A stretch of DNA of 64,000 nucleotides from Patescibacteria group bacterium (GCA_050949525.1 JBMNFW010000001.1:529-64528); one strand, 5' to 3'. Shown: positions 2,554-45,674, counted from the first letter of the stretch. Numbers and translations: made by a program. Notes: generated by a model not told the origin, from the letters alone.

Positions 2554-3639
2554 TGAATAAGTTCAGATACATTTTGGAAAATAAAAAGCCCAAAATGTAT
2601 GCAGATAAAGTTTAAGTACTATAATTGTCCCGGATTTGGTACATTATATAATGATGCAATTAAGCAAAAATATATGATTACCAAAGAAGCTAGACAAAGA
2701 CTCAAAATATTAGAATTTTGGAAGCAATATGGCCTTCAAGCCACTACTGATGCCTTTGGGGTTAAAAAATCTACCCTATACAATTGGCAAAAAATATTTA
2801 GAGAAGGGGGTGGCAAGATAGAAGCTCTCAATCCTAAATCCCAAGCTAGGATTAACAAGAATAAAAGAGAAATACATCCTCTGATATTAAAAGAGATTAG
2901 ACGTTTAAGACTAGAGATTTGTCCTAATATGGGTAAAACTAAAGTTAAAAAATTTTTAGATAAATTTTGTGAAATTAATAATTTACCAATATACTCAGAA
3001 TCAAAGATAGGTAGAATTATTAAAGATAAAGATATATATCATCATAGACAGAAAATATCTCATTTTGGTAAGATTAAAAAAATTAAAAAAACTAAAAAGA
3101 AAAGAAAACCTAAGGAATTACAAGTAAATAATCCTGGGGATTTAATAGAGATAGATACTGTTGTTAGATTTCACAATGGATTAAAGAGATATATTATTAC
3201 CGCTGTTGATACTTTTAGCCGAACAGCTTTCGCTTATGCCTATAACAGAATTAGTAGCTCTAATGCTAAAGATTTTTTTAAAAAATTAGAAGAAGTCATG
3301 CCCTTTAATATTAAGGCTGTTCAGACTGATAATGGTTTAGAATTCCATCTCTATTTTAAAAAATACTTAGAAGAGAGAAAAATTGAGCATTATTTCAATT
3401 ATCCAGGTAGACCATACAAACAGGGTCATATTGAGAAGTTTAATAGGACTATTCAAGAAGAATTCATTGATTGGAGTGGTGAAAAATACTTTGATAATTT
3501 AGATGATTTTAATAATTTGTTAATTGATTGGCTTCTTTGGTATAATACCGATAGACCACATTGGAGCCTTGAATTAGTATCTCCGATGAATTATTTGGTT
3601 AATAATAATTTTTTTTCCAAAATGACGTGGACTAATACA
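2554..3639 (+). mobile_element. IS element copy 1 (IS481/IS3-like DDE element), 1086 bp, TG..CA termini, 5-bp TSD AAGTC
   Basis: Boundaries set by where it stops matching the inverted copy at 15653-16739. Imperfect terminal IRs TGAATAAGTTCAG..CATTTTGGAAAA / TGTATTAGTCCACGTCATTTTGGAAAA. AAGTC at 2549-2553 and 3640-3644. Confidence 0.85.
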
Positions 3640-3648
3640 AAGTCTTGA
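2599..3648 (+). CDS. DDE transposase (integrase-core/rve type), intact 349 aa
   Basis: N-terminal HTH-like region, then D..D..E core (IEIDTV, VQTDNGLEF, GHIEKFNRTIQEEF) and YNTDRPHWSL tail. Stop codon lies 9 nt outside the IS end. Confidence 0.85.
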   Translation: MQIKFKYYNCPGFGTLYNDAIKQKYMITKEARQRLKILEFWKQYGLQATTDAFGVKKSTLYNWQKIFREGGGKIEALNPKSQARINKNKREIHPLILKEIRRLRLEICPNMGKTKVKKFLDKFCEINNLPIYSESKIGRIIKDKDIYHHRQKISHFGKIKKIKKTKKKRKPKELQVNNPGDLIEIDTVVRFHNGLKRYIITAVDTFSRTAFAYAYNRISSSNAKDFFKKLEEVMPFNIKAVQTDNGLEFHLYFKKYLEERKIEHYFNYPGRPYKQGHIEKFNRTIQEEFIDWSGEKYFDNLDDFNNLLIDWLLWYNTDRPHWSLELVSPMNYLVNNNFFSKMTWTNTKS

Positions 3649-12765: not shown

Positions 12766-12791
12766 AAAAAGCGTCAAAAGACGCTTTTTTT
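12766..12791. terminator. Bidirectional rho-independent terminator
   Basis: A5-GCGTC-AAAA-GACGC-T7 between convergent genes. Confidence 0.6.
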
Positions 12792-12816: not shown

Positions 12817-13230
12817 TTAATCAACTGGTGTATTATCATTTACTCCTCCAGGTAAATTCTTGAAAACAAAATTAGTAATACCATAAGCCATAACTACAAT
12901 CAATAAACCAATTACGGCATTTTTTATTCGAGATTGAGCTTGATGAACAATATCCTCATTTCCTCCAGCTGTCATCCAACGAAAACCACTAACTATTATT
13001 AAAATCACAAAAAGAATACCAAGGAATGATAAAACAACTCGTATAACATTAGCAACAATATGCTCAGCCCCATGAGGAGTAGCCAAGCCAGAGCTTTGTT
13101 GAAAAGCATTCATTTGTTGATTATTACCAATACTAACAGTTGATGGAGACTCTTGACCCCAAGAGATAAACGGAAAAAACAAAAACCCTACTAAAAGAAG
13201 ACTTAAAAATATTTGTTTAAAATTTTTCAT
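12817..13230 (-). CDS. Small secreted two-TM protein, TrbC/VirB2-like (CPR T4SS-pilin-type) paralog 1
   Basis: Signal peptide, then LSFLGILFVILIIVSGFRWMTAGGNEDIVHQAQSRIKNAVIGLLIVVMAYGI. Confidence 0.7.
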   Translation of the reverse strand: MKNFKQIFLSLLLVGFLFFPFISWGQESPSTVSIGNNQQMNAFQQSSGLATPHGAEHIVANVIRVVLSFLGILFVILIIVSGFRWMTAGGNEDIVHQAQSRIKNAVIGLLIVVMAYGITNFVFKNLPGGVNDNTPVD

Positions 13231-13253
13231 ATTTAAAAAATAAATACTAATAA

Positions 13254-13745
13254 TTATTGAATAGGGGTACTATCAGGAGTGCTAGTATTTTGTACTCTGG
13301 TAAGAAAATATTTATCAACAGTGTTCCAAATAGCATAAGCAGAAACTACTATTACTAAACCAATAACAGCATTCTTGATCCTATTCTGAGCCTTCTTAAC
13401 ATCCTCCTCATTTCCTCCAGCTGTCATCCATTGAAATCCTCCAACTATTATCAATACTATGAATAAAATTCCTAATAAACTTAAAACGGTATTAATAATA
13501 ACTCCAATATTAGCAGCTAAAGAAGTTTCGGTAGCATCAGCATAGCCACCACTAGTTCCGGCAGTTTTTAACTTGCCTAAAATTCTAGAATTACCAGTAG
13601 TGTCGGTAGTATTAGTGGTAGAATTACTAGGATCATCACTTTCATTACCTTCTTGAGCAAAAACAAAAAACGGTAAAGCTAAAATAATAACTAAAATAAT
13701 AACTGAAGATAATTGTCTTAAAAAAATATTTACTTTATTTTTCAT
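13254..13745 (-). CDS. TrbC/VirB2-like two-TM protein paralog 2
   Basis: Signal peptide, S/T/N-rich variable region, LSLLGILFIVLIIVGGFQWMTAGGNEEDVKKAQNRIKNAVIGLVIVV. Confidence 0.7.
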   Translation of the reverse strand: MKNKVNIFLRQLSSVIILVIILALPFFVFAQEGNESDDPSNSTTNTTDTTGNSRILGKLKTAGTSGGYADATETSLAANIGVIINTVLSLLGILFIVLIIVGGFQWMTAGGNEEDVKKAQNRIKNAVIGLVIVVSAYAIWNTVDKYFLTRVQNTSTPDSTPIQ

Positions 13746-13751
13746 ATTACA

Positions 13752-14129
13752 TTATTTAATATTATTTTTTAAAAGAGTACTTATGACAAAAACACTAATA
13801 GCGTAAGATAAGACAACAATCACTAAACCAATCACGGCATTTTTTATTCGATTTTTAGCTTTCTTAACTGATTCTTCATTACCCTCAGCTGTCATCCATT
13901 GAATTCCCCCAATAATCATTAAAACTACAAATATTATTCCTAAAAAACCCAAAACTGCTTGTATAACCATAGCTACCACTTCTTCAGGCTCTTTACTCGC
14001 ACCATATTCAGCTCCACTACCAACTTTATCTACCAAACTAAAAACATTAGCCCCAGCCCAAACTGGCGAAACCAGAAAAAAAGACAGAAGAGATATGAGA
14101 ACTATTTTTTTAAAAACACTTTTTATCAT
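13752..14129 (-). CDS. TrbC/VirB2-like two-TM protein paralog 3
   Basis: LGFLGIIFVVLMIIGGIQWMTAEGNEESVKKAKNRIKNAVIGLVIVV. Confidence 0.7.
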   Translation of the reverse strand: MIKSVFKKIVLISLLSFFLVSPVWAGANVFSLVDKVGSGAEYGASKEPEEVVAMVIQAVLGFLGIIFVVLMIIGGIQWMTAEGNEESVKKAKNRIKNAVIGLVIVVLSYAISVFVISTLLKNNIK

Positions 14130-14132
14130 ACT

Positions 14133-14636
14133 CTAATTTAAAAGATTAGACGGTCCGGAAAATCTAGAGACTATAAAATAAGTAATGGCATAAGCTAACA
14201 ACACTACCACTAATCCAATGATAGAGTTTTTGATAGTATTTTTAGCTTTTTTAACTGACTCTTCATTTCCTCCAGCTATCATCCATTGGATTCCGCCAAA
14301 AATTAATAAAACTAAAAATATAACTCCAATTAAGGACAACACCGCACCAATAATGGTTCCAGCACCTACTTCCAGTCCTCCAGAAAATATTCCACTAGCA
14401 TATCCACTACCAACACCACTTTTACCTAAACCATATCCAGATTCAAACTCAGATAAAGTAATAGTAGCAGGGGCCGGTGTTTCTATTTCTTCATTATTAC
14501 TATCATCAACGGTACTTATTACATTTTCAGGTTCAGGAATATTAGAAGGGCTCTCTGGATTATCTTGTGCTAAAACCAAAGTACTAGAAAAAATTAACAA
14601 AACAGAAAAAATAAATATTTGTTTTATAGCTTTCAT
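14133..14636 (-). CDS. TrbC/VirB2-like two-TM protein paralog 4
   Basis: LSLIGVIFLVLLIFGGIQWMIAGGNEESVKKAKNTIKNSIIGLVVVL. Confidence 0.7.
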   Translation of the reverse strand: MKAIKQIFIFSVLLIFSSTLVLAQDNPESPSNIPEPENVISTVDDSNNEEIETPAPATITLSEFESGYGLGKSGVGSGYASGIFSGGLEVGAGTIIGAVLSLIGVIFLVLLIFGGIQWMIAGGNEESVKKAKNTIKNSIIGLVVVLLAYAITYFIVSRFSGPSNLLN

Positions 14637-14640
14637 CTTT

Positions 14641-15033
14641 TTAAGAAGTTAAACTATCACCAATAAATTTAGTAATAGCATAAGCAGCTAACACCACCAC
14701 CAAACCAATAACGGCTTGAACTATTAAGTTTTTAGCTTTTTCAACTTGTTTTTCGTTTCCACTAGCTGTCATCCAAGTTAATCCACCATATACAATTAAA
14801 ACCATGAAAATCACTCCGACAAAGGATAAAACAGCACCAATTATTTTTCCAATCCTAGTCGCCATAAAACCTCCGGGATCATTTCCCACACCTTGAACAT
14901 TAAAGGCTTTCCTATTCTTCGAATCATAATTAGCCGATGTAAAAAGACCATAATCATTAGCACTAACTAAAACTGGAGTAAATGCTAAAAAAAACGAGAA
15001 ACTTATTAAAATAATCTTTTTTAAAAAATTCAT
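14641..15033 (-). CDS. TrbC/VirB2-like two-TM protein paralog 5
   Basis: LSFVGVIFMVLIVYGGLTWMTASGNEKQVEKAKNLIVQAVIGLVVVL. Confidence 0.7.
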   Translation of the reverse strand: MNFLKKIILISFSFFLAFTPVLVSANDYGLFTSANYDSKNRKAFNVQGVGNDPGGFMATRIGKIIGAVLSFVGVIFMVLIVYGGLTWMTASGNEKQVEKAKNLIVQAVIGLVVVLAAYAITKFIGDSLTS

Positions 15034-15090
15034 ATTTTATTTAAATAATTTTACCACACCTATAAACACTTAATATAAATGTTCATGGGT

Positions 15091-15114
15091 ATGGTGCTTA
15101 ATAATAAGCACCAT
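15091..15114 (-). terminator. Perfect 10-bp hairpin in the only sizeable gap of the pilin-like array (possible terminator or processing site)
   Basis: ATGGTGCTTA-ATAA-TAAGCACCAT; adjacent 12-bp palindrome AAAGTCGACTTT at 15121-15132; no clear U-tract. Confidence 0.3.
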
Positions 15115-15144
15115 ATTTCCAAAGTCGACTTTAGAAATATATTA

Positions 15145-15573
15145 TTATAGTTGTTCTCCAACTCCAGTAGCTTTAAATAATGAACTTAAAACGAATCGAG
15201 AAATACCCCAAGCCGCTAAAATAATAACTAAACCAATTACTCCAGCTCCTAGTAATTTTTTAGCTTCAGCAACATTATCTTCATTTCCTGCAGCTGTCAT
15301 CCATTTAAAGCCACCTAACAATACTATGATCACAGCCACGATACCTAATAATGTTAAAACTACATTAATTAACTGGGCTACCATAGCTCGAGGATCTTTA
15401 GCCCCCAATTTAATACCATCCTCCTCACTCATTTCAGGATTAGTACCATCAACAAAATCAAGACCAAAAGTACTATTAACAGCTTCATTATTAGTAGCAG
15501 TAACGCTATTTATACCCAATAAAGGAATGCAAAATAATGAAATGATAAATAAACTTAATATTTTTTTCTTCAT
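15145..15573 (-). CDS. TrbC/VirB2-like two-TM protein paralog 6
   Basis: LTLLGIVAVIIVLLGGFKWMTAAGNEDNVAEAKKLLGAGVIGLVIIL. Confidence 0.7.
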   Translation of the reverse strand: MKKKILSLFIISLFCIPLLGINSVTATNNEAVNSTFGLDFVDGTNPEMSEEDGIKLGAKDPRAMVAQLINVVLTLLGIVAVIIVLLGGFKWMTAAGNEDNVAEAKKLLGAGVIGLVIILAAWGISRFVLSSLFKATGVGEQL

Positions 15574-15619
15574 AATTCACCACCTTTCTAGTTTTTAATT
15601 TTTAATTATTACGAGAAAA

Positions 15620-16694
15620 TTATACCATAAGTTCAAAAAAATAACAAGCTATTGTATTAGTCCACGTCATTTTGGAAAAAAAATTATTATTAACCAAATA
15701 ATTCATCGGAGATACTAATTCAAGGCTCCAATGTGGTCTATCGGTATTATACCAAAGAAGCCAATCAATTAACAAATTATTAAAATCATCTAAATTATCA
15801 AAGTATTTTTCACCACTCCAATCAATGAATTCTTCTTGAATAGTCCTATTAAACTTCTCAATATGACCCTGTTTGTATGGTCTACCTGGATAATTGAAAT
15901 AATGCTCAATTTTTCTCTCTTCTAAGTATTTTTTAAAATAGAGATGGAATTCTAAACCATTATCAGTCTGAACAGCCTTAATATTAAAGGGCATGACTTC
16001 TTCTAATTTTTTAAAAAAATCTTTAGCATTAGAGCTACTAATTCTGTTATAGGCATAAGCGAAAGCTGTTCGGCTAAAAGTATCAACAGCGGTAATAATA
16101 TATCTCTTTAATCCATTGTGAAATCTAACAACAGTATCTATCTCTATTAAATCCCCAGGATTATTTACTTGTAATTCCTTAGGTTTTCTTTTCTTTTTAG
16201 TTTTTTTAATTTTTTTAATCTTACCAAAATGAGATATTTTCTGTCTATGATGATATACATCTTTATCTTTAATAATTCTACCTATCTTTGATTCTGAGTA
16301 TATTGGTAAATTATTAATTTCACAAAATTTATCTAAAAATTTTTTAACTTTAGTTTTACCCATATTAGGACAAATCTCTAGTCTTAAACGTCTAATCTCT
16401 TTTAATATCAGAGGATGTATTTCTCTTTTATTCTTGTTAATCCTAGCTTGGGATTTAGGATTGAGAGCTTCTATCTTGCCACCCCCCTTCTCTAAATATT
16501 TTTTGCCAATTGTATAGGGTAGATTTTTTAACCCCAAAGGCATCAGTAGTGGCTTGAAGGCCATATTGCTTCCAAAATTCTAATATTTTGAGTCTTTGTC
16601 TAGCTTCTTTGGTAATCATATATTTTTGCTTAATTGCATCATTATATAATGTACCAAATCCGGGACAATTATAGTACTTAAACTTTATCTGCAT
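15620..16694 (-). pseudogene. Transposase of IS copy 2, split by +1 frameshift in a G6 run
   Basis: Track ORFs 16455-16694 (79 aa) and 15620-16564 (314 aa) together equal the copy-1 protein. C6 at 16482-16487 versus G5 at 2806-2810. One I-to-V change (KDVYHH). Confidence 0.7.
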
Positions 16695-16739
16695 ACATTT
16701 TGGGCTTTTTATTTTCCAAAATGTATCTGAACTTATTCA
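15653..16739 (-). mobile_element. IS element copy 2 (inverted relative to copy 1), 1087 bp, 5-bp TSD GCTAT
   Basis: Same termini as copy 1; GCTAT at 15648-15652 and 16740-16744; one extra G in a G-run relative to copy 1. Confidence 0.85.
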
Positions 16740-16758
16740 GCTATGATATAATAATTTT

Positions 16759-18411
16759 ATGAAAAAATGTAAATTTTTAAAACTATTAAATAGCCTGCTT
16801 TATATCTTAATGTTTTTAATTATTATTAATAACTCTCTAGGTTATTTAGATCCCGATTTAGGTTGGCATATAAAAGTAGGAGAAAGTATATATCAAGAAC
16901 AAGCCGTTCCTCATATTAATCATTATAATTTTGTTTTTTCAGACAACGATAATTTTTGGGTTGATCATGAATGGTTGTCTAATCTTTTAACTTACTTGAT
17001 TTATGATAATTTTGGTTATCTCTCCCTAACTCTCTTTTTTGCCCTAATATTATTTTTCACCTTATTAATACTAAATCAATTTATATTTAATAAAATCAGC
17101 TCTCAACCCATCTTTAAAACATTGTTAATAATTTTGGAAATAATATTGATTAAAGGTATACTACCCAGCTCCGGAATTAGAATACAAGAATTATCATGGT
17201 TATTTTTTATTTTACTCCTATTAATTATTTATAATTTTGAAGACAAGGTTATACTTAAAAAGAAAAAACCTTGGTTAATTTTAGGCTTCTTAATCCCACT
17301 ATTTTTCCTCTGGACTAATTCACACGGCAGCTTCATATTAGGTCCAGTAATTCTCTTTATTTATATTATAGTTAAAGCAGGAGAAATAATTATATTTAAA
17401 TCAAACTGTAAATTAAAATCATTTTTTGACTTTTCTAGAACTCTAGAAAAACAAAACATACTTCATTTAAGTCTCGCCCTAATTCTTAGTTCAGCTATAA
17501 GTCTAATAAATCCTTATGGATTAAAATTATTCGATTTTCTATTTATTTATAGTAAAAATACCGCCTATCTAAGAATAATCGCCGAATGGTTTTCACCTTT
17601 CTCCTTTCCACTAGTTCCTTGGAATCTTATTTATTTAGTTATTTTTCTAGTTGTATTTATATATTTTTTCATTATTAACAAAAAGAAAGAAGAACTTCAA
17701 TTCATACGACAACCTTGGAATCTCGCCCTTAACCTTATTTTCCTAATTTTATTTTTAAAATCAAAACGACATTTTCCACTATTTTTTATTGTCTCCTTTC
17801 CCAGCCTAGTTACTATTTTATGGTCAGGAATTAAAAACATTTTTTCAAATATTAAATTCAATCATAATGGAAAAATTGATATTTTTTTAAAAATCTTTAT
17901 TATCACCAGCATTATAATTTCTGGAATGGCTATACTTCTGAAAACGAATTTTCACCACCGCGATCCATTTAAATCATTTTGTGGAAAATATCCTTGTTAT
18001 GCGGTAAATTTTCTCCAAAAACATCATCAAAAATATCTTAATAAAAAACTATTTAACAATTATAATTGGGGCGGCTATCTTATTCATGAATACCCAGAAA
18101 AACAAATCTTTATTGATGGTCGCTTACCCCAAAAAACCTTAAAAAACCACAGCTATATTGAAGAATATTTACTTTTTTCATCTGAATCAGAGGAGATAAT
18201 AAAAGAAAAACTAGATGAATACGATATTGAGTTAGTTCTCATTTCTAAAGAAACTAAAAAAAGATTAAATTGGTTAGAACAAATACTGCTTTTTAAGAAC
18301 ACCAAAATCTTAGTAGCTAAAAATAATTTAAAAGATTTTCTAAATAAGGACAGTAACTGGATTTTAATTTACGAAGACCAAACCAGTATTATCTATGAAA
18401 AAATTAATTAA
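16759..18411 (+). CDS. Large polytopic membrane protein, possibly GT-C-type glycosyltransferase
   Basis: 550 aa, more than 10 TM helices plus soluble C-terminal domain; LGWHIKVGE...DHEWLSNLL N-terminal motif; function not established. Confidence 0.5.
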   Translation: MKKCKFLKLLNSLLYILMFLIIINNSLGYLDPDLGWHIKVGESIYQEQAVPHINHYNFVFSDNDNFWVDHEWLSNLLTYLIYDNFGYLSLTLFFALILFFTLLILNQFIFNKISSQPIFKTLLIILEIILIKGILPSSGIRIQELSWLFFILLLLIIYNFEDKVILKKKKPWLILGFLIPLFFLWTNSHGSFILGPVILFIYIIVKAGEIIIFKSNCKLKSFFDFSRTLEKQNILHLSLALILSSAISLINPYGLKLFDFLFIYSKNTAYLRIIAEWFSPFSFPLVPWNLIYLVIFLVVFIYFFIINKKKEELQFIRQPWNLALNLIFLILFLKSKRHFPLFFIVSFPSLVTILWSGIKNIFSNIKFNHNGKIDIFLKIFIITSIIISGMAILLKTNFHHRDPFKSFCGKYPCYAVNFLQKHHQKYLNKKLFNNYNWGGYLIHEYPEKQIFIDGRLPQKTLKNHSYIEEYLLFSSESEEIIKEKLDEYDIELVLISKETKKRLNWLEQILLFKNTKILVAKNNLKDFLNKDSNWILIYEDQTSIIYEKIN

Positions 18412-18414
18412 ATT

Positions 18415-19108
18415 ATGTTAATCGAATTTATACTTCCATCATATAATGAAGAACAAATTTTAGAAAAAATACTTTAAGACTTTTATCTTTTTTAAAAAAC
18501 AAAACTACTCTTTTGATTGGAAAATAGTATTATTATTAAACGGCACTCACGATCAATCTGAATCCATAGCCTTTAATTTAAAAAATAAAAATAAAGAAAT
18601 TGAAATTTTTTCTTTACCAGAAAAAGGTAAGGGAAACGCTCTAAAAAAATATTTTAATTATAGCTCCGCCTCTTTTCTAATTTATATGGATGTCGATTTA
18701 GCTGTTTCAGAAGATGATTATGATTTGATCATTGGATCCCGCCTATTAAAATCATCACAAACTAATCGAAGCCTATTAAGAGAAATAAGCTCCAGAACCT
18801 ATATCTACCTATCTAAACTAATTATAAAACACCCTTTTTCTGATCTTCAGTGCGGTTTTAAAGGTATAAAAAAAGAGGCCTGGAAACAGATCTCACCTCT
18901 AATCTTAGATAAATATTGGTTTTTTGATACTGAACTCTTAATTTTTACCTCTCGTTTTAATTTTAAATTCAAGGAAATCCCAGTTTCGTGGTCAGAAAAT
19001 CGTTATGAAAAAAGAAAAACTAAAGTGAAGGTTATTAGAGACACCTGGAAATTCATAAAAAATTTGATTCGCCTAAGAAAAAGACTTCTTAAGGAAGATA
19101 TTTTTTAA
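18415..19108 (+). pseudogene. Family-2 glycosyltransferase (Dpm1/DPG-synthase-like) interrupted by a +1 frameshift in an A6 run
   Basis: ATG 18415 gives MLIEFILPSYNEEQILEK then stop at 18475. Removing one A of 18464-18469 continues as YFKTFIFFKKQNYSFDWKIVLLLNGTHDQS...MDVDLAVS...IIGSR, into track ORF 18686-19108. Confidence 0.6.
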
Positions 19109-20057: not shown

Positions 20058-20726
20058 TTATTCCACTAAAACTCTTCTAACTACTTCATTTTCCTGACTA
20101 TATTTTTTCTTAGATGTAATAGTAATAGTATTAACCCCAGATTTTAAATAAACTTGGCCAGAGAAACAAGAATCTTTATCAATTAAAACTATCTGACCAT
20201 TTATTTTTACCTCACTCTCAGGTTCTGTACACCCTCCCACTTCGACAAAAAAATCATTAGTAATTTCATTGTTTTCCGGATAATAAATCTCTAAAGTTGG
20301 AGCTAAAAAAATATTTTTAAAATAGAAAAATAAATACAGAAGACAAGCCAAAACTATAAAAAAGATAAGAAATGATCGTCCAATAGATGGAAAAGATAAA
20401 AGATTTTTCCAGCTAACAACTTTATTAAAAAAAATACTTTTTCCAAAACTTTGATTACGATGCTGTTCTTTTACAAAATCATTAACAATATTTTTATCAC
20501 TAATACCTAAATAATCAATATACTTTTTAAAAAATATTTTAGAATAAGCTCCTTGCGGTAAAACCTGATAAGCACCATCTTCAATAGCTTTTAAATACTT
20601 AAGATTAACTTTTATTTCCTGTGATATTTCTTCCAAAGACTTATTTTTTTTCTCTCGAATCCCCTTAAGATAGCTACCGATAAAATCTTGATCTAAAGAT
20701 ACCTTTTTTTTTACAAAAGAACTCAT
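20058..20726 (-). CDS. RodZ-like HTH membrane protein
   Basis: N-terminal XRE-type HTH (IGSYLKGIREKKNKSLEEISQEIKVNLKYLKAIEDG), one TM, C-terminal beta-rich domain. Confidence 0.6.
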   Translation of the reverse strand: MSSFVKKKVSLDQDFIGSYLKGIREKKNKSLEEISQEIKVNLKYLKAIEDGAYQVLPQGAYSKIFFKKYIDYLGISDKNIVNDFVKEQHRNQSFGKSIFFNKVVSWKNLLSFPSIGRSFLIFFIVLACLLYLFFYFKNIFLAPTLEIYYPENNEITNDFFVEVGGCTEPESEVKINGQIVLIDKDSCFSGQVYLKSGVNTITITSKKKYSQENEVVRRVLVE

Positions 20727-20731
20727 AAAAA

Positions 20732-21184
20732 CTAAGGAGCGGTTTGATTAGTTGCTGGTGTAGATGTTGATGGTAAACTACTCCAACTATTAGTATATCC
20801 TAAAGCTTTTAAGGTAAAATCAACTATTAAATAACTAGCAAAAACTATTACTAAACCTATAACGGCGGCAGTTAAAATTCCCTTAGCCTTAGAAACTTTC
20901 TCACTATTTCCAGCTGAAATTAACATCATAACTCCTCCATAAACAAACATTAATAAAGCTAAAGAACCGATTACGCCAAATATTATTTGAGCCACTCTTA
21001 ATCCTATTCTAATCAGATCATTTAACTCATAATTTCCGGTTGAATATTTACTACCTAAACTTGTGTCCTCACTCCCAACAACTATCGGATTAGAAGCATA
21101 ACTAATAGAAACAAAAAGAAAAGAAAAAAGAAAAAAGAAAATAACTAAAAAAATTATTTGTTTTGTTTTGTTTTTATTTTTCAT
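20732..21184 (-). CDS. TrbC/VirB2-like two-TM protein, divergent paralog 7
   Basis: Signal peptide, then FGVIGSLALLMFVYGGVMMLISAGNSEKVSKAKGILTAAVIGLVIVF; same layout as the 12.8-15.6 kb array. Confidence 0.65.
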   Translation of the reverse strand: MKNKNKTKQIIFLVIFFFLFSFLFVSISYASNPIVVGSEDTSLGSKYSTGNYELNDLIRIGLRVAQIIFGVIGSLALLMFVYGGVMMLISAGNSEKVSKAKGILTAAVIGLVIVFASYLIVDFTLKALGYTNSWSSLPSTSTPATNQTAP

Positions 21185-25850: not shown

Positions 25851-25881
25851 AATAAAAAACCAACCCCCGAAGAGGTTAGTT
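25851..25881 (-). terminator. Rho-independent terminator after the lysine-rich protein gene
   Basis: - strand AACUAACC-ucuucggg-GGUUGGUU + U-run; the single non-WC pair is G.U only on the - strand. Confidence 0.6.
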
Positions 25882-25905
25882 TTTATAAAAGAGAAAAATA
25901 AAAAA

Positions 25906-26181
25906 CTATTTCTTCTTAGCAACAACTTTCTTTTTAGCTACTGGTTTCTTAGCTACAACTTTTTTCTTAGTTGTTGGCTTCTTAGCTGCAACTTTCTTTT
26001 TAGCCACAACCTTTTTCTTAGCTACTGGTTTTTTAGCTGCAACTTTCTTTTTAGCTACTGGTTTCTTAGCAGCTGTTTTTTTAGCTACAACTTTTTTCTT
26101 AGCTACTGGCTTCTTAGCTACAACCTTTTTCTTGGCTGCAACTTTCTTTTTAGCTACTGGTTTCTTAGTAGTCTTTTTCAT
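25906..26181 (-). CDS. Lysine/alanine-rich histone H1-like (Hc1/AlgP-like) repeat protein
   Basis: Start at MKKTTKK; about 90% K/A/V/P in KKPVAKKKVVA-type repeats encoded by a degenerate DNA tandem repeat. Confidence 0.65.
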   Translation of the reverse strand: MKKTTKKPVAKKKVAAKKKVVAKKPVAKKKVVAKKTAAKKPVAKKKVAAKKPVAKKKVVAKKKVAAKKPTTKKKVVAKKPVAKKKVVAKKK

Positions 26182-26277
26182 AATAAAAAAATTATTTTTA
26201 TTTAGCATAGGAACCGACCCATTCCTAATTAAATCTAAATTAATTATACCATAAATTTTTTAATACAACAATATAAA

Positions 26278-33316: not shown

Positions 33317-35221
33317 ATGAATATAAATTTTAAAAAAAATGAATCTTTTAATTTATGGAGCAGAGTTAATTTTGTTCTATGGAACAATGCAAGATATGAT
33401 TTTGAGCTTATAGCAGAATTGTTAAAATATATACAAAGCACTTCGCTATGCTTATCAATACTTGATATCACAAATAAGTATATAAAGAACAAAAATGATA
33501 ATACAATATTTTTTGACGGCACAATTAAATCCTTAAAATATTTAATTAAAAATAAATATTTAAATATATCTGATATTCCAGAAATTACAAATGGTCATAA
33601 GAAGCTAAAAGATTTATTAAAAAAATATTCTAAAAAAGTAGATATTATTGATATCTTTTTTGATATAGAAGAGCCCATTTTTAAAGCCATACTAATTGAA
33701 TACCCTCATCTTTTAAACATTGTTCTAGAAGATAGTCTGGGCAGGAGTCTCATTAATAAGGCTTTGATAAAAAATGGAGTAGCCAATTATAATGATTTTT
33801 TAAAAAAAATTAATAACAGTTTAGACCGAACAGAGGTTAGCGAAGATAAATACTCCAAAGAGGCTATGAAATGTAAAATAATTTATGTTGGATTGTTTTT
33901 AAATAACAAAAAAATTATAATTTCTAAAGACTCTCCTGAGATGATTAATCTTTTTTCAACCCTAACTGATAAATTAATAGAAAGCGAAAATTATAGTAAG
34001 GGTATAATAAACTCATTATACTCTTCTTTATATGGACACAATAAATGGAATAAAGAAAAAAAAGTTTGTCTTACTGGTTGTGAACTTTTAAAATCAAATT
34101 TTCTATTGCTTTCCTTTCCAGAAAACCATATAGCATTTATTTATGAAATGCTTTTAAAAAACGAAACTGAAAAAATAGGAAAAAAATATTTTGGCGATAA
34201 TTACAATTCTGAGGGCTTTATAGCCTCCTTGGCCATCAAAATGATTGTTATAATTATTATTTTTCGTAGTCAAGATTTTGTTCCAAAAGATGAATTAGCC
34301 GAGGTAGCTTTTTTTAGCAAAGGAGCATTGCTAGATGGCTTAAACTACGCTGTAAAAGAAAGTGAAAAAAATGGAAAAAAAATATTAAAACCTAAGCAAT
34401 GGTTTATTAATTATTACAAAAAAGAATTAGAGAAAAGAGTAGCTTTTATAAAATTTCAAGTTGATAATAATATTTCAGTTGTTGAATTAAGAGAAGGTCT
34501 ACCTCGTGTAATTTATCTGCCAATATTTGAAAGTTTTAGATTTTTTTGTTCTCAACTTCCGCAAATAGAAACTTTGAAACAAATTATAAAGCTCTTTACT
34601 AATAAAAATATTAAAAATGAAATAAAAAATGACATTCTAGTAAATTTTGCTTTGAACATACAAGAAATAATAAGCCAAAAAGATGAAAGTGTTAAATTAT
34701 CAAATGAAGAAAATCATTTTAAAGATGCATTTATAATATTAATAGAGCAAATTTTTAAAAATTTAATAAAAAAAGAAATAGATAGATTAAAACTGCAATC
34801 AAAAATTAAAAGCTATTATGAAGAAAGTGATTTGTTTAGCGACGCTAGTATTTCTATTATTGAGCTAATTTTAAGTTTTGATTTAACAAAAAATGATAGC
34901 TTTATCGGATATTTAAAGTATAATTTAAACTTAAAAATTAAAACTAAAATTCGCCCAAAGAAAAGCGATTATCTTACCAGCTTTGAGAACGAGCTTGCGG
35001 ATGATTTTATGGACAGTATTCCAGATGAAAATGATTTAATTGAACAAATAAATAATAAAGAGAATATTATAAAAATAAACGAATATATTAATAATTTACC
35101 AGAAAAACAAAAGGAGGCAATTAGAAAATATTATAAAGAAAACAAAAAATTATCTGACTCAGAAAGAAAAAATAAAAACAGGGGTCTAAATAAAATAAAA
35201 GAAATTATTTTAAATTCCTGA
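33317..35221 (+). CDS. Large hypothetical protein with C-terminal sigma-70 region-4-like HTH
   Basis: 634 aa; C-terminus LPEKQKEAIRKYYKENKKLSDSERKNKNRGLNKIKEII resembles the region 4.2 pattern LP.rqRev..l.y...s..eia...g.....l.ra. Confidence 0.5.
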   Translation: MNINFKKNESFNLWSRVNFVLWNNARYDFELIAELLKYIQSTSLCLSILDITNKYIKNKNDNTIFFDGTIKSLKYLIKNKYLNISDIPEITNGHKKLKDLLKKYSKKVDIIDIFFDIEEPIFKAILIEYPHLLNIVLEDSLGRSLINKALIKNGVANYNDFLKKINNSLDRTEVSEDKYSKEAMKCKIIYVGLFLNNKKIIISKDSPEMINLFSTLTDKLIESENYSKGIINSLYSSLYGHNKWNKEKKVCLTGCELLKSNFLLLSFPENHIAFIYEMLLKNETEKIGKKYFGDNYNSEGFIASLAIKMIVIIIIFRSQDFVPKDELAEVAFFSKGALLDGLNYAVKESEKNGKKILKPKQWFINYYKKELEKRVAFIKFQVDNNISVVELREGLPRVIYLPIFESFRFFCSQLPQIETLKQIIKLFTNKNIKNEIKNDILVNFALNIQEIISQKDESVKLSNEENHFKDAFIILIEQIFKNLIKKEIDRLKLQSKIKSYYEESDLFSDASISIIELILSFDLTKNDSFIGYLKYNLNLKIKTKIRPKKSDYLTSFENELADDFMDSIPDENDLIEQINNKENIIKINEYINNLPEKQKEAIRKYYKENKKLSDSERKNKNRGLNKIKEIILNS

Positions 35222-36057: not shown

Positions 36058-38121
36058 ATGTATTTAAACACTATAAAAATAAGAGAATATTTAGACCAAA
36101 AAGGGATTAAATATTCAGAAGCAAATGGAGAGCTAATTACTGACTGTGTATTCTGCGGAAAAGCAAGGCATTTATACTTTAGCTCTGAGACTAGTCAATA
36201 CGATTGCAAGGTTTGCGGAGAGCAAGGAAATATCTATACCCTTGCCAAACACTTAGGAGATAAAAATAGCGATGTTGTTATCTCTAAAAGAAATAACTAC
36301 AAACAAGAGGTTAACTTTAGCCTCTCTTTAGTTGAAAAATGCCATAAAGCACTCCCCGATAATATTAGAGACTATCTTAATAAAAGAGGGGTTAATGATG
36401 AAATTATAAATACCTATAAACTAGGCTTTGGCACTTTTTATAGAAAGAAATGGATTACTATCCCCATCAAAAACAAAGATGGGGAGTATATCTTCTTCAA
36501 ACTTCGCCAATCTCCTGAAGAGGGAAATGATAAAATAACTTATCCTAAAGGAATTGAAGCTCAAATCTATGACTGGGAGGAAGCTAAACAAACAGAAGAA
36601 AAAATAATGATTTGTGAGGGAGAGCTTGATAGCTTACTCTTGTTATCAAAAGGAGTAAAAGCTATAACTTCTACTCACGGAGCAATGACCTTTAAGAGAG
36701 AGTGGATTGAAGAGATAAGTAAAAACTTTAAAGATATTTATATCTGCTTTGATAACGATGAAGCTGGAAAAAAAGGAGCTAAGAGAATAGCTAAAATCTT
36801 AGAGGATTATGATAATAATATTTTTATCACTTCTCTACCCGAAGAAGTTGGAGTTGGTGGCGATATTACTGATTATTTTATTAAGCTTAATGGAGGTGTA
36901 GATGACTTATTTTCAAAACACTCCAAAGAATATCCTAAAAAAATTGATAGCTCAAACTTTAAAGAGATAGGCTCTGAAGATTTAATCAAAACTCTTGATT
37001 TAACTATTAAAAGAGATAATGAAAACAAATTAATAACATTTCTCTGTCAGTTATCTGCCTATACTGAGAGCTCTCAATTAAATGTAAGTTTTAATGCTCC
37101 CTCTTCTACTGGCAAATCTTATATCCCGATGGAGATAGCTAAGCTTTTCCCAAAAGAAGATATTGTTGAGATAGGTTATTGTAGCCCGACTGCCTTCTTC
37201 CACGATTCAGGGGAGATAGATAAAAACAAGGGAGAATTACTAGTTGATTTATCTAGAAAGATTATTATATTCCTTGACCAGCCTCACACCTTATTACTTC
37301 AACATCTTAGACCACTTTTATCTCACGACAAAAAGGAGATAAATATTAAGATAACTGATAAATCTCAGAAGTCTGGTCTTAGAACTAAGAATGTTATTCT
37401 ACGAGGCTTCCCTGCTGTTATCTTTTGCACTGCTGGATTAAAAATTGATGAGCAAGAATCAACTAGATTTATATTGCTCAGCCCAGAGGCTAATCAAGAT
37501 AAGATAAGAGAAGCTATCTTGCAAAAGATTAATAAAGAGTCTGACGATAACAATTATAATAACTTCTTAGATAACAATGAGGAAAGAGCTTCCTTGAAAA
37601 AAAGAATTATAGCTATTAAGGGAGAAAGAATAAGGGATATAAAAATAGCCTCTCCTGAAAAAATAAAAGATTTGTTTATTAGTAAAAATAAAATCCTAAA
37701 ACCTAGGCATCAAAGAGATATAGGAAAAATAATATCTCTCACTAAAGCCTTCGCTCTTTTAAATTTATGGTTTAGAGACAGAAATGGCTCTACTATACTA
37801 GCCAACGATAATGATATTGAAGAAGCCTTTAATGTTTGGGATAAAATTTCAAAGAGCCAAGAGCTCAATCTCCCCCCATTCATCTTTAACATCTACAAGG
37901 AGATAATTATCCCATCTTGGAAGGATAATAAGAAAAAAGGTATAAGCCGACAAGATATCTTTAAAAAATATTCAGAAATTAATGGGAGAGGTATAGCCGA
38001 TTGGATTTTAAGACAGCAAGTTATTCCCTCTCTTGAAGATTCTGGATTAATAATACAAGAAAAAGACAAAGATGATAAAAGAAAAATACTAATCTACCCG
38101 ACAAATAATATAGTGAGTTAA
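36058..38121 (+). CDS. Primase-helicase-type replication protein (Zn finger + TOPRIM + P-loop domain)
   Basis: CVFCGK..(18)..CKVCGEQG zinc finger; TOPRIM ICEGELDSLLL / CFDNDEAGKKGAKR; Walker-A-like NAPSSTGKSY in C-terminal half. Confidence 0.75.
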   Translation: MYLNTIKIREYLDQKGIKYSEANGELITDCVFCGKARHLYFSSETSQYDCKVCGEQGNIYTLAKHLGDKNSDVVISKRNNYKQEVNFSLSLVEKCHKALPDNIRDYLNKRGVNDEIINTYKLGFGTFYRKKWITIPIKNKDGEYIFFKLRQSPEEGNDKITYPKGIEAQIYDWEEAKQTEEKIMICEGELDSLLLLSKGVKAITSTHGAMTFKREWIEEISKNFKDIYICFDNDEAGKKGAKRIAKILEDYDNNIFITSLPEEVGVGGDITDYFIKLNGGVDDLFSKHSKEYPKKIDSSNFKEIGSEDLIKTLDLTIKRDNENKLITFLCQLSAYTESSQLNVSFNAPSSTGKSYIPMEIAKLFPKEDIVEIGYCSPTAFFHDSGEIDKNKGELLVDLSRKIIIFLDQPHTLLLQHLRPLLSHDKKEINIKITDKSQKSGLRTKNVILRGFPAVIFCTAGLKIDEQESTRFILLSPEANQDKIREAILQKINKESDDNNYNNFLDNNEERASLKKRIIAIKGERIRDIKIASPEKIKDLFISKNKILKPRHQRDIGKIISLTKAFALLNLWFRDRNGSTILANDNDIEEAFNVWDKISKSQELNLPPFIFNIYKEIIIPSWKDNKKKGISRQDIFKKYSEINGRGIADWILRQQVIPSLEDSGLIIQEKDKDDKRKILIYPTNNIVS

Positions 38122-38139
38122 GGGGTGGGTAAAATTACA
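38110..38139 (+). repeat. 30-bp repeat, copy B, overlapping the primase stop codon
   Basis: ATAGTGAGTTAAGGGGTGGGTAAAATTACA; 27/30 identical to reverse complement of 31689-31718. Confidence 0.7.
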
Positions 38140-38155
38140 ATTAATTTATATTTAT

Positions 38156-38788: not shown

Positions 38789-38792
38789 TAAT

Positions 38793-39128: not shown

Positions 39129-39145
39129 CATTTTTATGCTATAAT
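39117..39145 (+). promoter_or_regulatory. Extended -10 promoter of the recombinase leader
   Basis: TTGGAA (39117-39122), 17-nt spacer, TGCTATAAT (39137-39145); predicted TSS about 39152. Confidence 0.45.
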
Positions 39146-39151
39146 ATAAGT

Positions 39152-39273: not shown

Positions 39274-39294
39274 AGTTAAATTAATATTAAAAAT

Positions 39295-45615: not shown

Positions 45616-45634
45616 TAAGCTTAAAATATTAATT

Positions 45635-45664: not shown

Positions 45665-45674
45665 AATTTTCAAT

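What the first reader, a model, noticed from the sequence alone, without database searches (positions are those of the whole stretch)
12817..15573. Tandem array of six diversified TrbC/VirB2-like two-TM secreted proteins, with a seventh copy at 20732-21184 and no secretion ATPase nearby
Six consecutive - strand genes (125-167 aa) share a Sec signal peptide and a variable mature N-terminus. This N-terminus is S/T/N/P/G-rich and ranges from about 15 to about 70 aa. It is followed by a highly conserved hairpin: LS(F/L)LG(I/V)xF(V/I)xLxIxGG(F/I)xWMTA(G/E/S/A)GNExxVxKAxxxIxNAVIGLV(I/V)V. Gene spacings are 3-23 nt, except for one 111-nt gap that holds a perfect 10-bp hairpin. The layout matches conjugative-pilin-like subunits (TrbC/VirB2) and, from memory, the CPR family annotated as T4SS_pilin. 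No VirB4/VirD4/VirB6-like gene occurs within 64 kb. Conserved membrane hairpin plus hypervariable exposed N-termini in tandem suggests surface-filament or host-contact diversification, and the array abuts an IS copy.
Basis: partly seen in the sequence, partly recalled or inferred. Interest (0 to 1): 0.6.

Follow-up and report, generated by a model that had tools for sequence, protein, structure and literature searches.

The report
Patescibacterial VirB2-like pilin gene array
This is a conserved operon of six small membrane-hairpin "pilin-like" proteins (one built for high expression, five not) from an ultra-small Patescibacteria bacterium. Arrays of this kind are already described and known to be essential in a cultured relative, but here the array is unlinked from any secretion machinery and carries a previously undescribed structured RNA spacer.

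Summary
Six tandem − strand genes (12817–15573) and a seventh (20732–21184) all pass the Pfam gathering cut-off for PF18895 T4SS_pilin. No VirB4, VirD4 or VirB6 lies in the window or within 10 kb of either edge.

The array is not a local oddity. 71 of 80 related Patescibacteria loci carry 3–10 tandem copies (mode 6–7) in a fixed order, 1|2-3-4-5-6. Strain comparison shows purifying selection (12 synonymous, 2 nonsynonymous differences).

The kind is published. Quiñonero-Coronel 2025 reports 441 VirB2-like arrays. Wang 2023 reports six essential tandem genes plus one non-essential nearby copy in S. epibionticum.

New here:
- Type-1 genes alone have a strong Shine-Dalgarno site (81% versus 0–2% for the other types).
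- A covarying three-hairpin RNA motif, absent from Rfam, always follows type 1.
- The array is never next to T4SS genes in 80 loci.
- Its conserved divergent neighbour is an oligosaccharyltransferase-like GT-C enzyme.

Best reading: one major plus five minor pilin-like subunits, probably assembled by a T4SS encoded elsewhere. Verdict: a new member of a known kind, of moderate interest.

The parts
15619..15647 (-). Promoter-like site for the array: TTGTTA, 17-nt spacer, TG-n-TATAAT. It is native sequence lying 1 bp beyond the IS target duplication.
   Evidence: Consensus scan; IS ends and TSD mapped. A pattern match only, not shown to be functional.
15578..15586 (-). Strong Shine-Dalgarno sequence (AAGGUGGUG) in front of gene 1.
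   Evidence: Duplex with the anti-SD is −11.8 kcal/mol, in the top 2% of 60 window genes (median +0.8). 81% of type-1 orthologs have ≤ −9 kcal/mol, against 0–2% of types 2–7 and 5% of background genes.
15145..15573 (-). W1, 142 aa: type-1 pilin-like protein and candidate major subunit.
   Evidence: PF18895 38.7 bits. Positional ortholog score 114 bits against ≤67 off-diagonal. AF2 model: signal-peptide helix 3–20, disordered 21–60, hairpin H61–93 and H98–136. No SNPs in strain L082.
15032..15144 (-). Conserved three-hairpin RNA motif between gene 1 and gene 2.
   Evidence: z = −7.25. 35 pairs, 25 with compensatory changes; 92.8% of cells paired against about 44% for slid controls; 0 of 500 shuffles reach the observed values. 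Covariance model R1 scores it at 96 bits as the only window hit, and finds one sense-strand hit per locus in 42 loci. The motif always lies directly after the type-1 gene or genes. No Rfam match.
14641..15033 (-). W2, 130 aa: type-2 pilin-like protein.
   Evidence: PF18895 35.3 bits; diagonal 98 bits; no SD.
14133..14636 (-). W3, 167 aa: type-3 pilin-like protein with the longest variable N-terminus (64 aa).
   Evidence: PF18895 45.3 bits. Order 1|23456 recurs in relatives. The two nonsynonymous strain differences lie here: I51T and A92V.
13752..14129 (-). W4, 125 aa: type-4 pilin-like protein.
   Evidence: PF18895 43.5 bits; NF045849 53.5 bits, above its cut-off of 40.
13254..13745 (-). W5, 163 aa: type-5 pilin-like protein, with an S/T/N-rich N-terminus and C-tail.
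   Evidence: PF18895 43.2 bits; NF045849 46.2 bits; TrbC 20.9 bits, below threshold; diagonal 102 bits.
12817..13230 (-). W6, 137 aa: type-6 pilin-like protein and last gene of the operon.
   Evidence: PF18895 31.1 bits. It best-matches the last position in 56 of 80 loci.
12766..12789 (-). Intrinsic terminator ending the array: a 10-bp stem, AAAAAGCGUC/GACGCUUUUU, followed by a U-run.
   Evidence: Terminator scan; sequence read directly.
20732..21184 (-). W7, 150 aa: separate seventh pilin-like gene, 5 nt upstream of a RodZ-like gene and downstream of a solute-binding protein gene.
   Evidence: PF18895 42.7 bits. It best-matches the 'upstream singleton' of other loci, 108 bits against ≤50. Synteny SBP–W7–RodZ-like–methyltransferase is conserved in about 23 loci.
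15652..16739 (-). IS copy B (HTH + rve transposase, frameshifted here). It is inserted in the ~93-nt divergent region between the GT-C gene and W1.
   Evidence: 99% identical to copy A at 2554–3640. TSD TAGC at 16743–16740 and 15651–15648. Pfam rve/rve_3/HTH_23. An extra G at 16487 relative to the JGI strain.
16759..18411 (+). Conserved divergent neighbour: a 550-aa polytopic GT-C-fold, oligosaccharyltransferase-like glycosyltransferase. Its link to the array rests on synteny only.
   Evidence: No Pfam or NCBIfam family. AF2 pLDDT 92, pTM 0.92. Foldseek hits to STT3, AglB and PglB at E 5.6e-6 to 1.4e-3, TM 0.56. Invariant D31/D33. It lies directly upstream of the array in 31 of 80 loci.
18415..19108 (+). 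GT2 glycosyltransferase following the GT-C gene, interrupted by one frameshift near 18470–18488.
   Evidence: tblastn with the 245-aa ortholog matches residues 1–18 in one frame and 26–237 in another. The ortholog is PF00535.

Best explanation
The region is a chromosomal operon of a Patescibacteria (CPR) bacterium. It encodes six anciently diverged paralogs of the PF18895 'T4SS_pilin' (VirB2-like) family, and a seventh paralog lies 5 kb upstream.

Each product is made with a signal peptide. It inserts as a two-helix membrane hairpin, with the basic G-N-E...K-A-K loop inside the cell and the acidic, variable, disordered N-terminus (and short C-tail) outside.

The operon is built for unequal output. 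Gene 1 (type 1) alone has a strong ribosome-binding site. It is separated from genes 2–6 by a conserved three-hairpin RNA element, which most likely lowers or uncouples expression of the downstream genes through processing, mRNA stabilisation or partial termination. This gives one major and five minor subunits.

By analogy with the essential six-gene array inside the T4SS cluster of S. epibionticum, the subunits are most likely extracted from the membrane and assembled into a surface filament or conduit. The assembling T4SS (VirB4, VirB6, PrgI) would be encoded elsewhere in the genome.

Shown: family membership, fixed gene order, purifying selection, the SD asymmetry, RNA covariation, and absence of nearby T4SS genes. 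Inferred: topology, the major/minor roles, what the RNA element does, and dependence on a T4SS.
For: All seven pass the PF18895 gathering score. Two pass NF045849, a pilin-like conjugal transfer protein model. Source databases name homologs 'pilin' or 'Type IV secretion system pilin'. The AF2 model gives a hairpin with pLDDT 80–93 and a disordered N-terminus. The N-variable regions carry D+E 1–11 against K+R 0–3, and the loop is basic.

71 of 80 related loci have tandem runs, mode 6–7. The positional-orthology matrix is diagonal-dominant, and the layout 1|23456 recurs. Strain comparison gives 12 synonymous and 2 nonsynonymous differences.

SD is −11.8 kcal/mol for W1 only, and 81% against 0–2% across the loci. 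The RNA motif covaries, is strand-specific and is array-specific. A promoter-like site and a canonical terminator bracket the six genes.

Literature: 441 such arrays (PMC12102498). SEML1_0014–0019 are six PF18895 genes all called essential, next to VirB6- and VirB4-like genes, and a seventh, SEML1_0024, is non-essential (PMC10633639 supplement). ABY1-class genomes do have T4SS loci elsewhere, with comF, recG and radA.
Against: No T4SS gene lies next to any of the 80 related loci, nor within the window ±10 kb, so dependence on a T4SS rests on analogy alone. I could not check whether the source genome has VirB4.

Similarity to canonical VirB2/TrbC is weak: PF04956 scores 11.6–20.9 bits against 27.9; hhalign to MPF_T VirB2 gives 14.7% probability; there are no significant PDB sequence or fold matches.

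No pilus made of this family has ever been seen. The spacer is not a canonical intrinsic terminator, since it was not listed, and its function is untested. Tn-seq essentiality of the upstream genes in S. epibionticum could be a polar effect.
Confidence: 0.55

Rival explanations
1. A T4SS-independent envelope structure. The seven hairpin proteins form a heteromeric membrane or surface assembly (a ring, scaffold or anchor for exposed domains). This assembly is tied to cell-envelope and glycan biogenesis rather than to type IV secretion, and the exposed S/T/N-rich ends are glycosylated by the neighbouring OST-like GT-C enzyme.
For: The array is never adjacent to T4SS genes in 80 loci. Glycan genes recur as neighbours: the GT-C (31 loci) plus GT2 (38 loci), a Wzx-like flippase next to the singleton copy, DUF2079, and an NDP-sugar transferase. 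W7 is apparently co-transcribed with a RodZ-like gene. The hairpin module is fused to ectodomains of 180–1,800 aa in relatives, which is hard to fit into a tightly packed pilus. Fold hits include ATP-synthase c-ring hairpins.
Against: In the one experimentally studied relative the array sits inside the T4SS cluster. The survey finds VirB2-like genes near virB4 in 1,135 of 1,948 assemblies. N-x-S/T sequons are not enriched (128 observed, 115 expected). The GT2 partner is frameshifted in this genome. Synteny among related small genomes may simply be inherited.
Confidence: 0.22
2. A repertoire for antigenic or host-range variation. This is the first reader's view and the published speculation: interchangeable pilin variants with hypervariable exposed N-termini adapt the cell to different hosts or evade defences.
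For: The N-termini are unalignable between paralogs (0.18 identity, equal to the shuffled level) and poorly conserved even among positional orthologs. Assemblies tend to break inside the array (L082, L088). Type-1 and type-2 genes are duplicated in some genomes. The published analogy is to Bartonella and Anaplasma VirB2 paralogs.
Against: The order and identity of the six types are conserved across many species. Strain-level change is overwhelmingly synonymous. Only type 1 has a strong SD. There is no sign of switching machinery, such as invertible promoters or silent cassettes. All six S. epibionticum genes are called essential, which argues against redundancy.
Confidence: 0.1
3. An unrelated small-membrane-protein function: holin, bacteriocin, immunity protein or toxin.
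For: The proteins are small and have two TM helices. There are weak sub-threshold hits to many membrane families, such as Phage_holin_10 at E 0.34, and fold resemblance to pore-toxin hairpins at E > 1.
Against: PF18895 is the only family above threshold in all seven. PHROGs gives no holin family. The context is core chromosome and is conserved across species, not a phage or bacteriocin locus.
Confidence: 0.02

Closest known systems
VirB2-like (PF18895/PF04956) pilin arrays of Patescibacteria (Quiñonero-Coronel et al. 2025, Microb Genom, PMC12102498)
   Same: Tandem arrays of 2–11 small PF18895 genes with low mutual identity (published mean 25%, maximum 54%; here 24–45% over whole proteins). 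They are chromosomal and in a Patescibacteria host.
   Different: That survey concentrated on genes within ±20 CDS of virB4 and reports arrays as most abundant in Microgenomatia and Saccharimonadia. Here the array, and 80 relatives named Falkow-, Komeili-, Magasanik- and Uhrbacteria, is never next to T4SS genes. The fixed order, the SD asymmetry, the RNA spacer and the GT-C neighbour are not described there, as far as the text I read shows.
Essential pilin series SEML1_0014–0019 in the T4SS cluster of Ca. Southlakia epibionticum ML1 (Wang et al. 2023, Cell, PMC10633639)
   Same: Six tandem PF18895 genes of about 100–185 aa, plus a seventh separate 'pilin' a few kb away. This is the same 6+1 layout in a Patescibacteria host.
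   Different: There the array is divergent from a VirB6-like gene and lies about 9 kb from VirB4. Here it is divergent from an OST-like GT-C gene, with no T4SS gene in 84 kb. One-to-one orthology between the two sets was not tested.
TrbC/VirB2 conjugative pilins (PF04956; e.g. Agrobacterium VirB2, RP4 TrbC, F TraA)
   Same: Signal peptide, two hydrophobic helices joined by a short basic loop, small size, and a weak profile match over helix 1 (DP..MV..I..L..G....G..WM).
   Different: The score is below the family threshold. There is no adjacent VirB1, VirB3 or VirB4, whereas canonical virB2 sits directly between them. There are multiple paralogs instead of one gene, and long disordered N-terminal extensions. 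The host is a monoderm.
NF045849 Mbov_0395/MMCAP2_0565 pilin-like conjugal transfer proteins of Mycoplasma ICEs
   Same: W4 and W5 pass the model's cut-off and the others score 22–37 bits. It is a monoderm-type T4SS accessory hairpin protein.
   Different: Those are single genes inside integrative conjugative elements. Here there is a six-gene array in a conserved housekeeping context with no ICE genes.
Major/minor subunit operons of chaperone-usher and type IV pili with a stem-loop after the major subunit gene (e.g. papA; stated from my own knowledge)
   Same: The first gene is highly expressed and followed by a stable RNA structure, then several low-expression paralogous subunits.
   Different: The protein families and assembly machines are unrelated, so the analogy is functional only. 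The mechanism of the spacer here is untested.

Membership tests
Pfam PF18895 T4SS_pilin | Whole-protein HMM score at or above the gathering cut-off (26.6 bits) | tested here: met
   31.1, 43.2, 43.5, 45.3, 35.3, 38.7 and 42.7 bits for the seven proteins. The precomputed PF18895 hit is also listed for the source-contig genes.
Pfam PF18895 T4SS_pilin | Small protein with a signal peptide and a two-helix hydrophobic hairpin | tested here: met
   AF2 model of W1: H3–20, H61–93, a 4-residue turn, H98–136; hairpin pLDDT 80–93. The alignment shows the same layout in all seven.
Pfam PF04956 TrbC/VirB2 pilin | HMM score at or above the gathering cut-off (27.9 bits) | tested here: not met
   Best scores are 20.9 (W5), 17.0 (W6), 16.2 (W1) and 11.6 (W7) bits; W2, W3 and W4 are not listed. 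Some database homologs carry both PF18895 and PF04956 hits.
Pfam PF04956 TrbC/VirB2 pilin | Detectable profile-level homology to bona fide MPF_T VirB2 | tested here: inconclusive
   hhalign of the 121-sequence family profile against three annotated VirB2/TrbC proteins gives probability 14.7% and E 0.0018, with 38 columns aligned over helix 1.
Pfam PF04956 TrbC/VirB2 pilin | Fold match to solved conjugative pilins | tested here: inconclusive
Type IV secretion system (as a locus) | Pilin gene clustered with VirB4 and other machinery (VirB3/PrgI, VirB6, VirB1) | tested here: not met
   None in the window, none within ±10 kb, and none in the flanks of 80 related loci. Canonical virB2 genes sit directly between virB1 and virB3–virB4.
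Type IV secretion system (as a locus) | VirB4 present somewhere in the same genome | not testable with these tools
   Only about 84 kb of the 742,870-bp source contig could be read. The literature says 2,417 of 3,035 Patescibacteria assemblies have VirB4, and that ABY1 T4SS loci sit with comF, recG and radA.
Type IV secretion system (as a locus) | Subunits polymerise into an extracellular pilus | not testable with these tools
   This needs microscopy or biochemistry. It has not been shown for any PF18895 protein in the papers read.
NCBIfam NF045849 Mbov_0395 family pilin-like conjugal transfer protein | Score at or above the cut-off of 40 bits | tested here: inconclusive
   W4 (53.5) and W5 (46.2) pass. 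W2 (36.6), W1 (34.1), W3 (33.6), W6 (27.2) and W7 (21.8) do not.
Patescibacteria VirB2-like arrays (PMC12102498) | Two or more PF18895/PF04956 genes in tandem, with low mutual identity, in a Patescibacteria genome | tested here: met
   Six genes in tandem with 24–45% identity. All relatives are Patescibacteria-type MAGs. The definition was read.
   Pfam: only Phage_holin_10, at E 0.34 in one protein. PHROGs: no holin family at E ≤ 0.01.
GT-C glycosyltransferases, oligosaccharyltransferase type (for the neighbour at 16759–18411) | GT-C fold with acidic catalytic residues in the first external loop | tested here: met
   Foldseek hits to STT3, AglB and PglB at E 5.6e-6 to 1.4e-3, probability 1.00, TM 0.47–0.56. 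D31 and D33 are invariant just after the first TM helix. That these are the catalytic residues is inferred from their position only. Activity and substrate were not tested.

The most novel reading that the evidence does not exclude
In this lineage the six-gene array has become genetically independent of the T4SS. It encodes a stoichiometrically programmed heteromeric surface structure of one major and five minor hairpin subunits. Output is set by a new class of cis-acting three-hairpin RNA element after the major-subunit gene. The exposed, disordered ends are modified by a dedicated bacterial oligosaccharyltransferase-like GT-C enzyme encoded divergently from the operon.
Probability: 0.18. Interest if true: 0.65.

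Novelty: new member of a known kind. Interest (0 to 1): 0.38.

Why it matters
The T4SS and its pilin series are among the few functions shown to be essential for the epibiotic life of Patescibacteria, and their role is, in the words of a 2024 perspective, 'completely unknown'.

This locus adds nothing categorically new to the existence of such arrays. The comparative work does suggest three testable points about how they operate:
1. The six paralogs are distinct, conserved parts rather than variants.
2. One is the major subunit, marked by a strong SD in genomes that otherwise barely use SD sequences.
3. A conserved structured RNA marks the boundary between major and minor genes.

The lack of linkage to T4SS genes in a whole lineage, and the recurrent glycan-machinery neighbours, open the question of whether the family always works with a T4SS.

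Tried and rejected
- The search for related loci with all seven paralogs failed because the alignment had no conserved stretch. It was rerun with four.
- The recurrent ~800-aa neighbour was suspected to be VirB4. It is PEP synthase/PPDK.
- The 830-aa P-loop protein beside a singleton copy in L079 is FtsK, and its neighbours are Mur ligase, RpoB and RpoC. In L071 the neighbours are NusA, H+-PPase and trigger factor.
- I first thought the IS end supplied the −35 of a hybrid promoter (note 2). Mapping the 4-bp target duplications showed that both hexamers are native sequence.
dS is 0.6–2.2, which is near saturation, and the N-termini are unalignable. A strain-level count was used instead.
- N-glycosylation sequon enrichment is absent: 128 observed against 115 expected.
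- The PDB sequence-profile search found nothing, and Foldseek on the hairpin model found nothing significant.
- tblastn of W4 against 72,556 plasmids found no match.
- Accession BR000038 (R388) is not held.
- Rfam has no family for the spacer.
- Exact-protein look-up of the rightmost window gene found nothing. The leftmost gave only short contigs.
- I could not find a route to test for VirB4 on the rest of the source contig.


Full report
**Observation.** The ORF listing shows six consecutive − strand ORFs at 15573–15145, 15033–14641, 14636–14133, 14129–13752, 13745–13254 and 13230–12817. They are called W1–W6 here, in transcription order. A seventh, W7, lies at 21184–20732. Gaps are 111, 4, 3, 6 and 23 nt.

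The seven proteins align with a conserved core, including invariant G-N in the turn and I-G-L in helix 2, behind unalignable N-termini. A profile built from them finds no further copy among all six-frame ORFs of the window.

With boundaries anchored on the W-M-T-A-x-G-N-E motif, the region between the predicted signal peptide and the core is 22–64 aa long. It is 36–60% S/T/N/P/G and acidic (D+E 1–11 against K+R 0–3). Its pairwise identity between paralogs is 0.18, the same as shuffled sequence (0.16±0.05), while the cores share 48%.

**Family.** All seven pass the Pfam gathering score for PF18895 T4SS_pilin (31–45 bits against 26.6). TrbC/VirB2 (PF04956) appears only below threshold, at 11.6–20.9 bits against 27.9. 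NCBIfam NF045849, a 'pilin-like conjugal transfer protein' of Mycoplasma ICEs, is passed by W4 and W5 only. PHROGs gives no holin or other competing family.

An AlphaFold2 model of W1 from a 121-sequence alignment shows a signal-peptide helix (3–20) and a disordered segment (21–60). A confident helical hairpin follows: H61–93, a four-residue turn, then H98–136.

Foldseek against the PDB finds nothing significant (best E 1.9; ATP-synthase c subunits and pore-toxin hairpins). A profile search of PDB sequences finds nothing either. A profile–profile comparison with three annotated VirB2/TrbC proteins, fetched from conjugative plasmids, aligns helix 1 in register but reaches only 14.7% probability.

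So membership in PF18895 is firm. The link to canonical VirB2 is weak at the sequence level and untestable at the fold level with so simple a fold.

**Context in the window.** The window is low-GC (about 28%) core chromosome. It contains:
- dnaA (50528–51904) and dnaN
- a class-A PBP
- SMC and Lgt
- an MFS transporter and ten tRNAs
- a probable integrated element (a Toprim/P-loop protein plus a serine recombinase)

Only four ORFs of ≥150 aa have a Walker A motif, and none is VirB4-, VirD4- or VirB11-like. The polytopic proteins are Wzy_C, MFS, Lgt, YibE/F, EamA and the 550-aa protein discussed below.

The exact W1 protein is encoded on a 742,870-bp JGI metagenome contig that is 99.94% identical to the window. 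Reading about 10 kb beyond each window edge, on that contig or on close strains, shows no T4SS gene either.

**The array is conserved, not local.** A scan of one genome per species found more than 520 loci with relatives. The 80 that were kept are all Patescibacteria-type MAGs, named Falkow-, Komeili-, Magasanik- and Uhrbacteria among others. From memory, these belong to GTDB class ABY1.

71 of the 80 have tandem runs of 3–10 genes: 29 loci with six and 15 with seven. Many also have one extra copy 1.7–7 kb upstream on the same strand.

Window genes best-match the same position elsewhere. Diagonal scores are 114, 98, 80, 78, 102, 94 and 108 bits, against 38–86 off-diagonal. When genes are typed by best match, the order 1|2-3-4-5-6 recurs exactly in many loci. 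Variants arise by duplication of type 1 (11|, 111|) or type 2.

Flanking synteny is also conserved: solute-binding protein, then W7, a RodZ-like gene, a methyltransferase, a small membrane protein, GT2 and the 550-aa membrane protein (both on the opposite strand), the array, a secreted 261-aa protein (opposite strand), then Lgt and MFS. Twenty-five relatives have PEP synthase/PPDK after the array; this window does not.

**Selection.** A second assembly (Logan SRR31061296, 99.33% identical over 2,076 bp) differs at 14 sites in W2–W4. Twelve are synonymous and two are not (W3 I51T and A92V). W1 and the spacer are identical. This is purifying selection.

Among positional orthologs the N-terminal regions are still poorly conserved and vary in length, apart from short motifs just before helix 1. 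The ends do drift fast over long times, but there is no sign of ongoing diversification.

**Operon anatomy and expression design.** On the − strand, a promoter-like site (TTGTTA, 17-nt spacer, TG-n-TATAAT; 15647–15619) precedes W1. A canonical intrinsic terminator (12789–12766) follows W6.

W1 has the strongest anti-SD pairing in the window: −11.8 kcal/mol, in the top 2% of 60 genes whose median is +0.8. W2–W7 have none. Across the related loci, 81% of type-1 genes reach ≤ −9 kcal/mol, against 0–2% of types 2–7 and 5% of 860 background genes.

The 111-nt spacer after W1 folds far better than shuffles (z = −7.25). In 44 loci the equivalent spacer has a median z of −5.9, against −2.2 for control spacers.

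An alignment of 14 spacers gives three hairpins with 35 pairs. Of these, 25 show compensatory changes. 92.8% of cells are paired, against about 44% when partners are slid, and 0 of 500 shuffles reach the observed values. Many G·U pairs lie on the sense strand.

A covariance model finds the motif once per locus in 42 loci, 28 of which were not in the seed, at up to 102 bits on the sense strand and 24–37 bits antisense. There is essentially no match elsewhere in 1.31 Mb, and a single match in the window at 15032–15144. It always lies directly after the type-1 gene or genes.

Rfam has no match, and the terminator scan did not flag the spacer. I infer that type 1 is the major subunit. I also infer that the element uncouples or lowers expression of the five downstream genes. 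One possible mechanism is RNase III-type processing at the 19-bp third hairpin, with the two upstream hairpins stabilising the type-1 mRNA. That mechanism is an inference and was not shown.

**What is already known.** Quiñonero-Coronel et al. 2025 (PMC12102498) searched 3,035 Patescibacteria genomes with PF18895 and PF04956 among other profiles. They found VirB2-like genes in 1,948 VirB4-bearing assemblies, near virB4 in 1,135 of them. They also found 441 arrays of 2–11 genes in 383 assemblies, with a mean identity of 25%, and suggested host-range versatility. They focused on genes near virB4, and they note that ABY1 T4SS loci sit with comF, recG and radA.

Wang et al. 2023 (PMC10633639) showed that a series of predicted pilins inside the T4SS cluster of S. 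epibionticum is essential. Their supplementary tables list SEML1_0014–0019 as six tandem PF18895 genes, all called essential. These are divergent from a VirB6-like gene. A seventh 'pilin', SEML1_0024, lies about 3 kb away and is non-essential.

[quoted passage not shown] The 6+1 layout is thus on record. The present locus is a further member, from a lineage where the array is separated from the T4SS.

**Neighbour.** The 550-aa polytopic protein encoded divergently from the array (16759–18411) has no Pfam, NCBIfam or PDB sequence match. It has 489 homologs, and all the named ones are from Patescibacteria. Its AF2 model is excellent (pLDDT 92, pTM 0.92).

The model matches oligosaccharyltransferase catalytic subunits: STT3 at E 5.6e-6 and TM 0.56, AglB, and PglB at 1.4e-3. 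Other GT-C enzymes follow. D31 and D33 are invariant after the first helix.

The protein lies directly upstream of the array in 31 of 80 loci and is followed by a GT2, which carries one frameshift in this genome. A Wzx-like flippase, DUF2079 and an NDP-sugar transferase also recur next to family members. This suggests, but does not show, glycosylation of the exposed ends. N-x-S/T sequons are not enriched.

**Variable ectodomains.** In relatives the hairpin module is fused to large exposed parts. One example is a 1,947-aa protein with the module at residues 13–139 (L051). About 9 kb beyond the right window edge in close strains there are ~2,000-aa proteins with PF18895 plus fn3/Big_5. N-terminal extensions of 180–400 aa and occasional two-module fusions also occur. 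The module therefore acts as a conserved membrane or assembly unit carrying variable exposed parts at either end.

**IS.** The IS next to the array spans 15652–16739, flanked by a TAGC duplication. The other copy spans 2554–3640, flanked by AGTC. It landed in the ~93-nt divergent region, 11 nt from the GT-C start codon and immediately upstream of the array's −35. The native promoter-like hexamers are intact. The transposase gene points into the array.

**Verdict.** The family assignment and the absence of nearby machinery are right. The 'diversification' reading is not supported.

The thing is a new member of a published kind. The added value lies in four features found here: the fixed six-type order, the major/minor expression design, the conserved RNA spacer, and the OST-like neighbour. 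Whether the assembly depends on a T4SS in this lineage remains open.

Noticed in passing
window 16759-18411 (+): A 550-aa polytopic protein with no Pfam, NCBIfam or PDB sequence match. It represents a family whose named homologs are all from Patescibacteria. Its AF2 model (pLDDT 92) matches the oligosaccharyltransferase catalytic subunits STT3, AglB and PglB. This looks like an unannotated OST-like GT-C family in bacteria, conserved next to the pilin array.
   Followed up: yes
window 18415-19108 (+): The GT2 glycosyltransferase after the GT-C gene has a single frameshift near 18470–18488, also present in the JGI strain. Six of the eleven substitutions that separate the window from the 99.94%-identical JGI contig cluster in 18727–18973, and all six are transitions. 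This may be a decaying pseudogene or a recombination patch.
   Followed up: partly
L085 1-131, L086 1-131 (about 9-10 kb beyond the right window edge in close strains); L051 9977-15820: Giant proteins of about 1,950–2,000 aa that combine a PF18895 pilin-like module with fn3/Big_5-type domains. In L051 the module is N-terminal (residues 13–139). Other relatives have 180–400-aa N-terminal extensions or two modules in one ORF (L045, L053, P0001–P0006).
   Followed up: partly
window 2554-3640 (+) and 15652-16739 (-): Two 99%-identical copies of a ~1,088-bp IS (HTH + rve transposase) with 4-bp target duplications (AGTC, TAGC) and similar flanks (ATCA…TTG). The transposase reading frame runs past the IS end into flanking DNA. 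Copy B has an extra G at 16487 that splits the ORF here but not in the JGI strain. A further rve fragment lies just left of the window on the JGI contig (L087 6277–7020).
   Followed up: partly
window, all genes: Most genes in this genome have no detectable Shine-Dalgarno pairing. The median duplex energy with the anti-SD is +0.8 kcal/mol over 60 genes, which makes the strong SD of W1 stand out.
   Followed up: partly
L012, L014, L028, L036, L071, L079 (singleton loci); window 59178-60188: A third conserved context for a single PF18895 gene in relatives: pseudouridine synthase, an unknown gene, and a Wzx-like flippase, facing the pilin-like gene and a GH-like 336-aa protein. The window has the GH-like homolog (59178–60188, next to EamA and GT2 genes) but no pilin-like gene beside it.
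   Followed up: partly
window 25880-26201: A run of about ten degenerate direct repeats (periods 15, 18 and 33 nt) inside the 100-aa ORF 25906–26208, just upstream of smc.
   Followed up: no
window 36058-40953: A Toprim-domain protein with a Walker A motif (687 aa, primase-helicase-like), two small ORFs and a large serine recombinase (531 aa) ending beside tRNA-His. This is probably an integrated mobile element or prophage remnant.
   Followed up: no
window 33317-35221 (+): A 634-aa protein with no Pfam family, whose C-terminal ~120 residues weakly match sigma-70/ECF region models (TIGR02937, E 3.7e-7, below the cut-off).
   Followed up: no
window 45616-45726: A near-contiguous 55-nt inverted repeat (73% complementary; core GTTCTACGTAGAAC) between the convergent ORFs 44890–45615 and 45711–46436.
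   Followed up: no
window 25144; L081 1-2950: The JGI contig has an extra T relative to the window that splits smc into two ORFs there. smc is intact (1,056 aa) in the window. This is probably a homopolymer assembly error in one of the two.
   Followed up: no
window 20058-21184 (-): W7 ends 5 nt before a RodZ-like gene (HTH_25, a TM segment and a Glucodextran_B-like domain), and this pairing is conserved in about 23 loci. It is an unexplained link between a pilin-like gene and a cell-shape protein.
   Followed up: no
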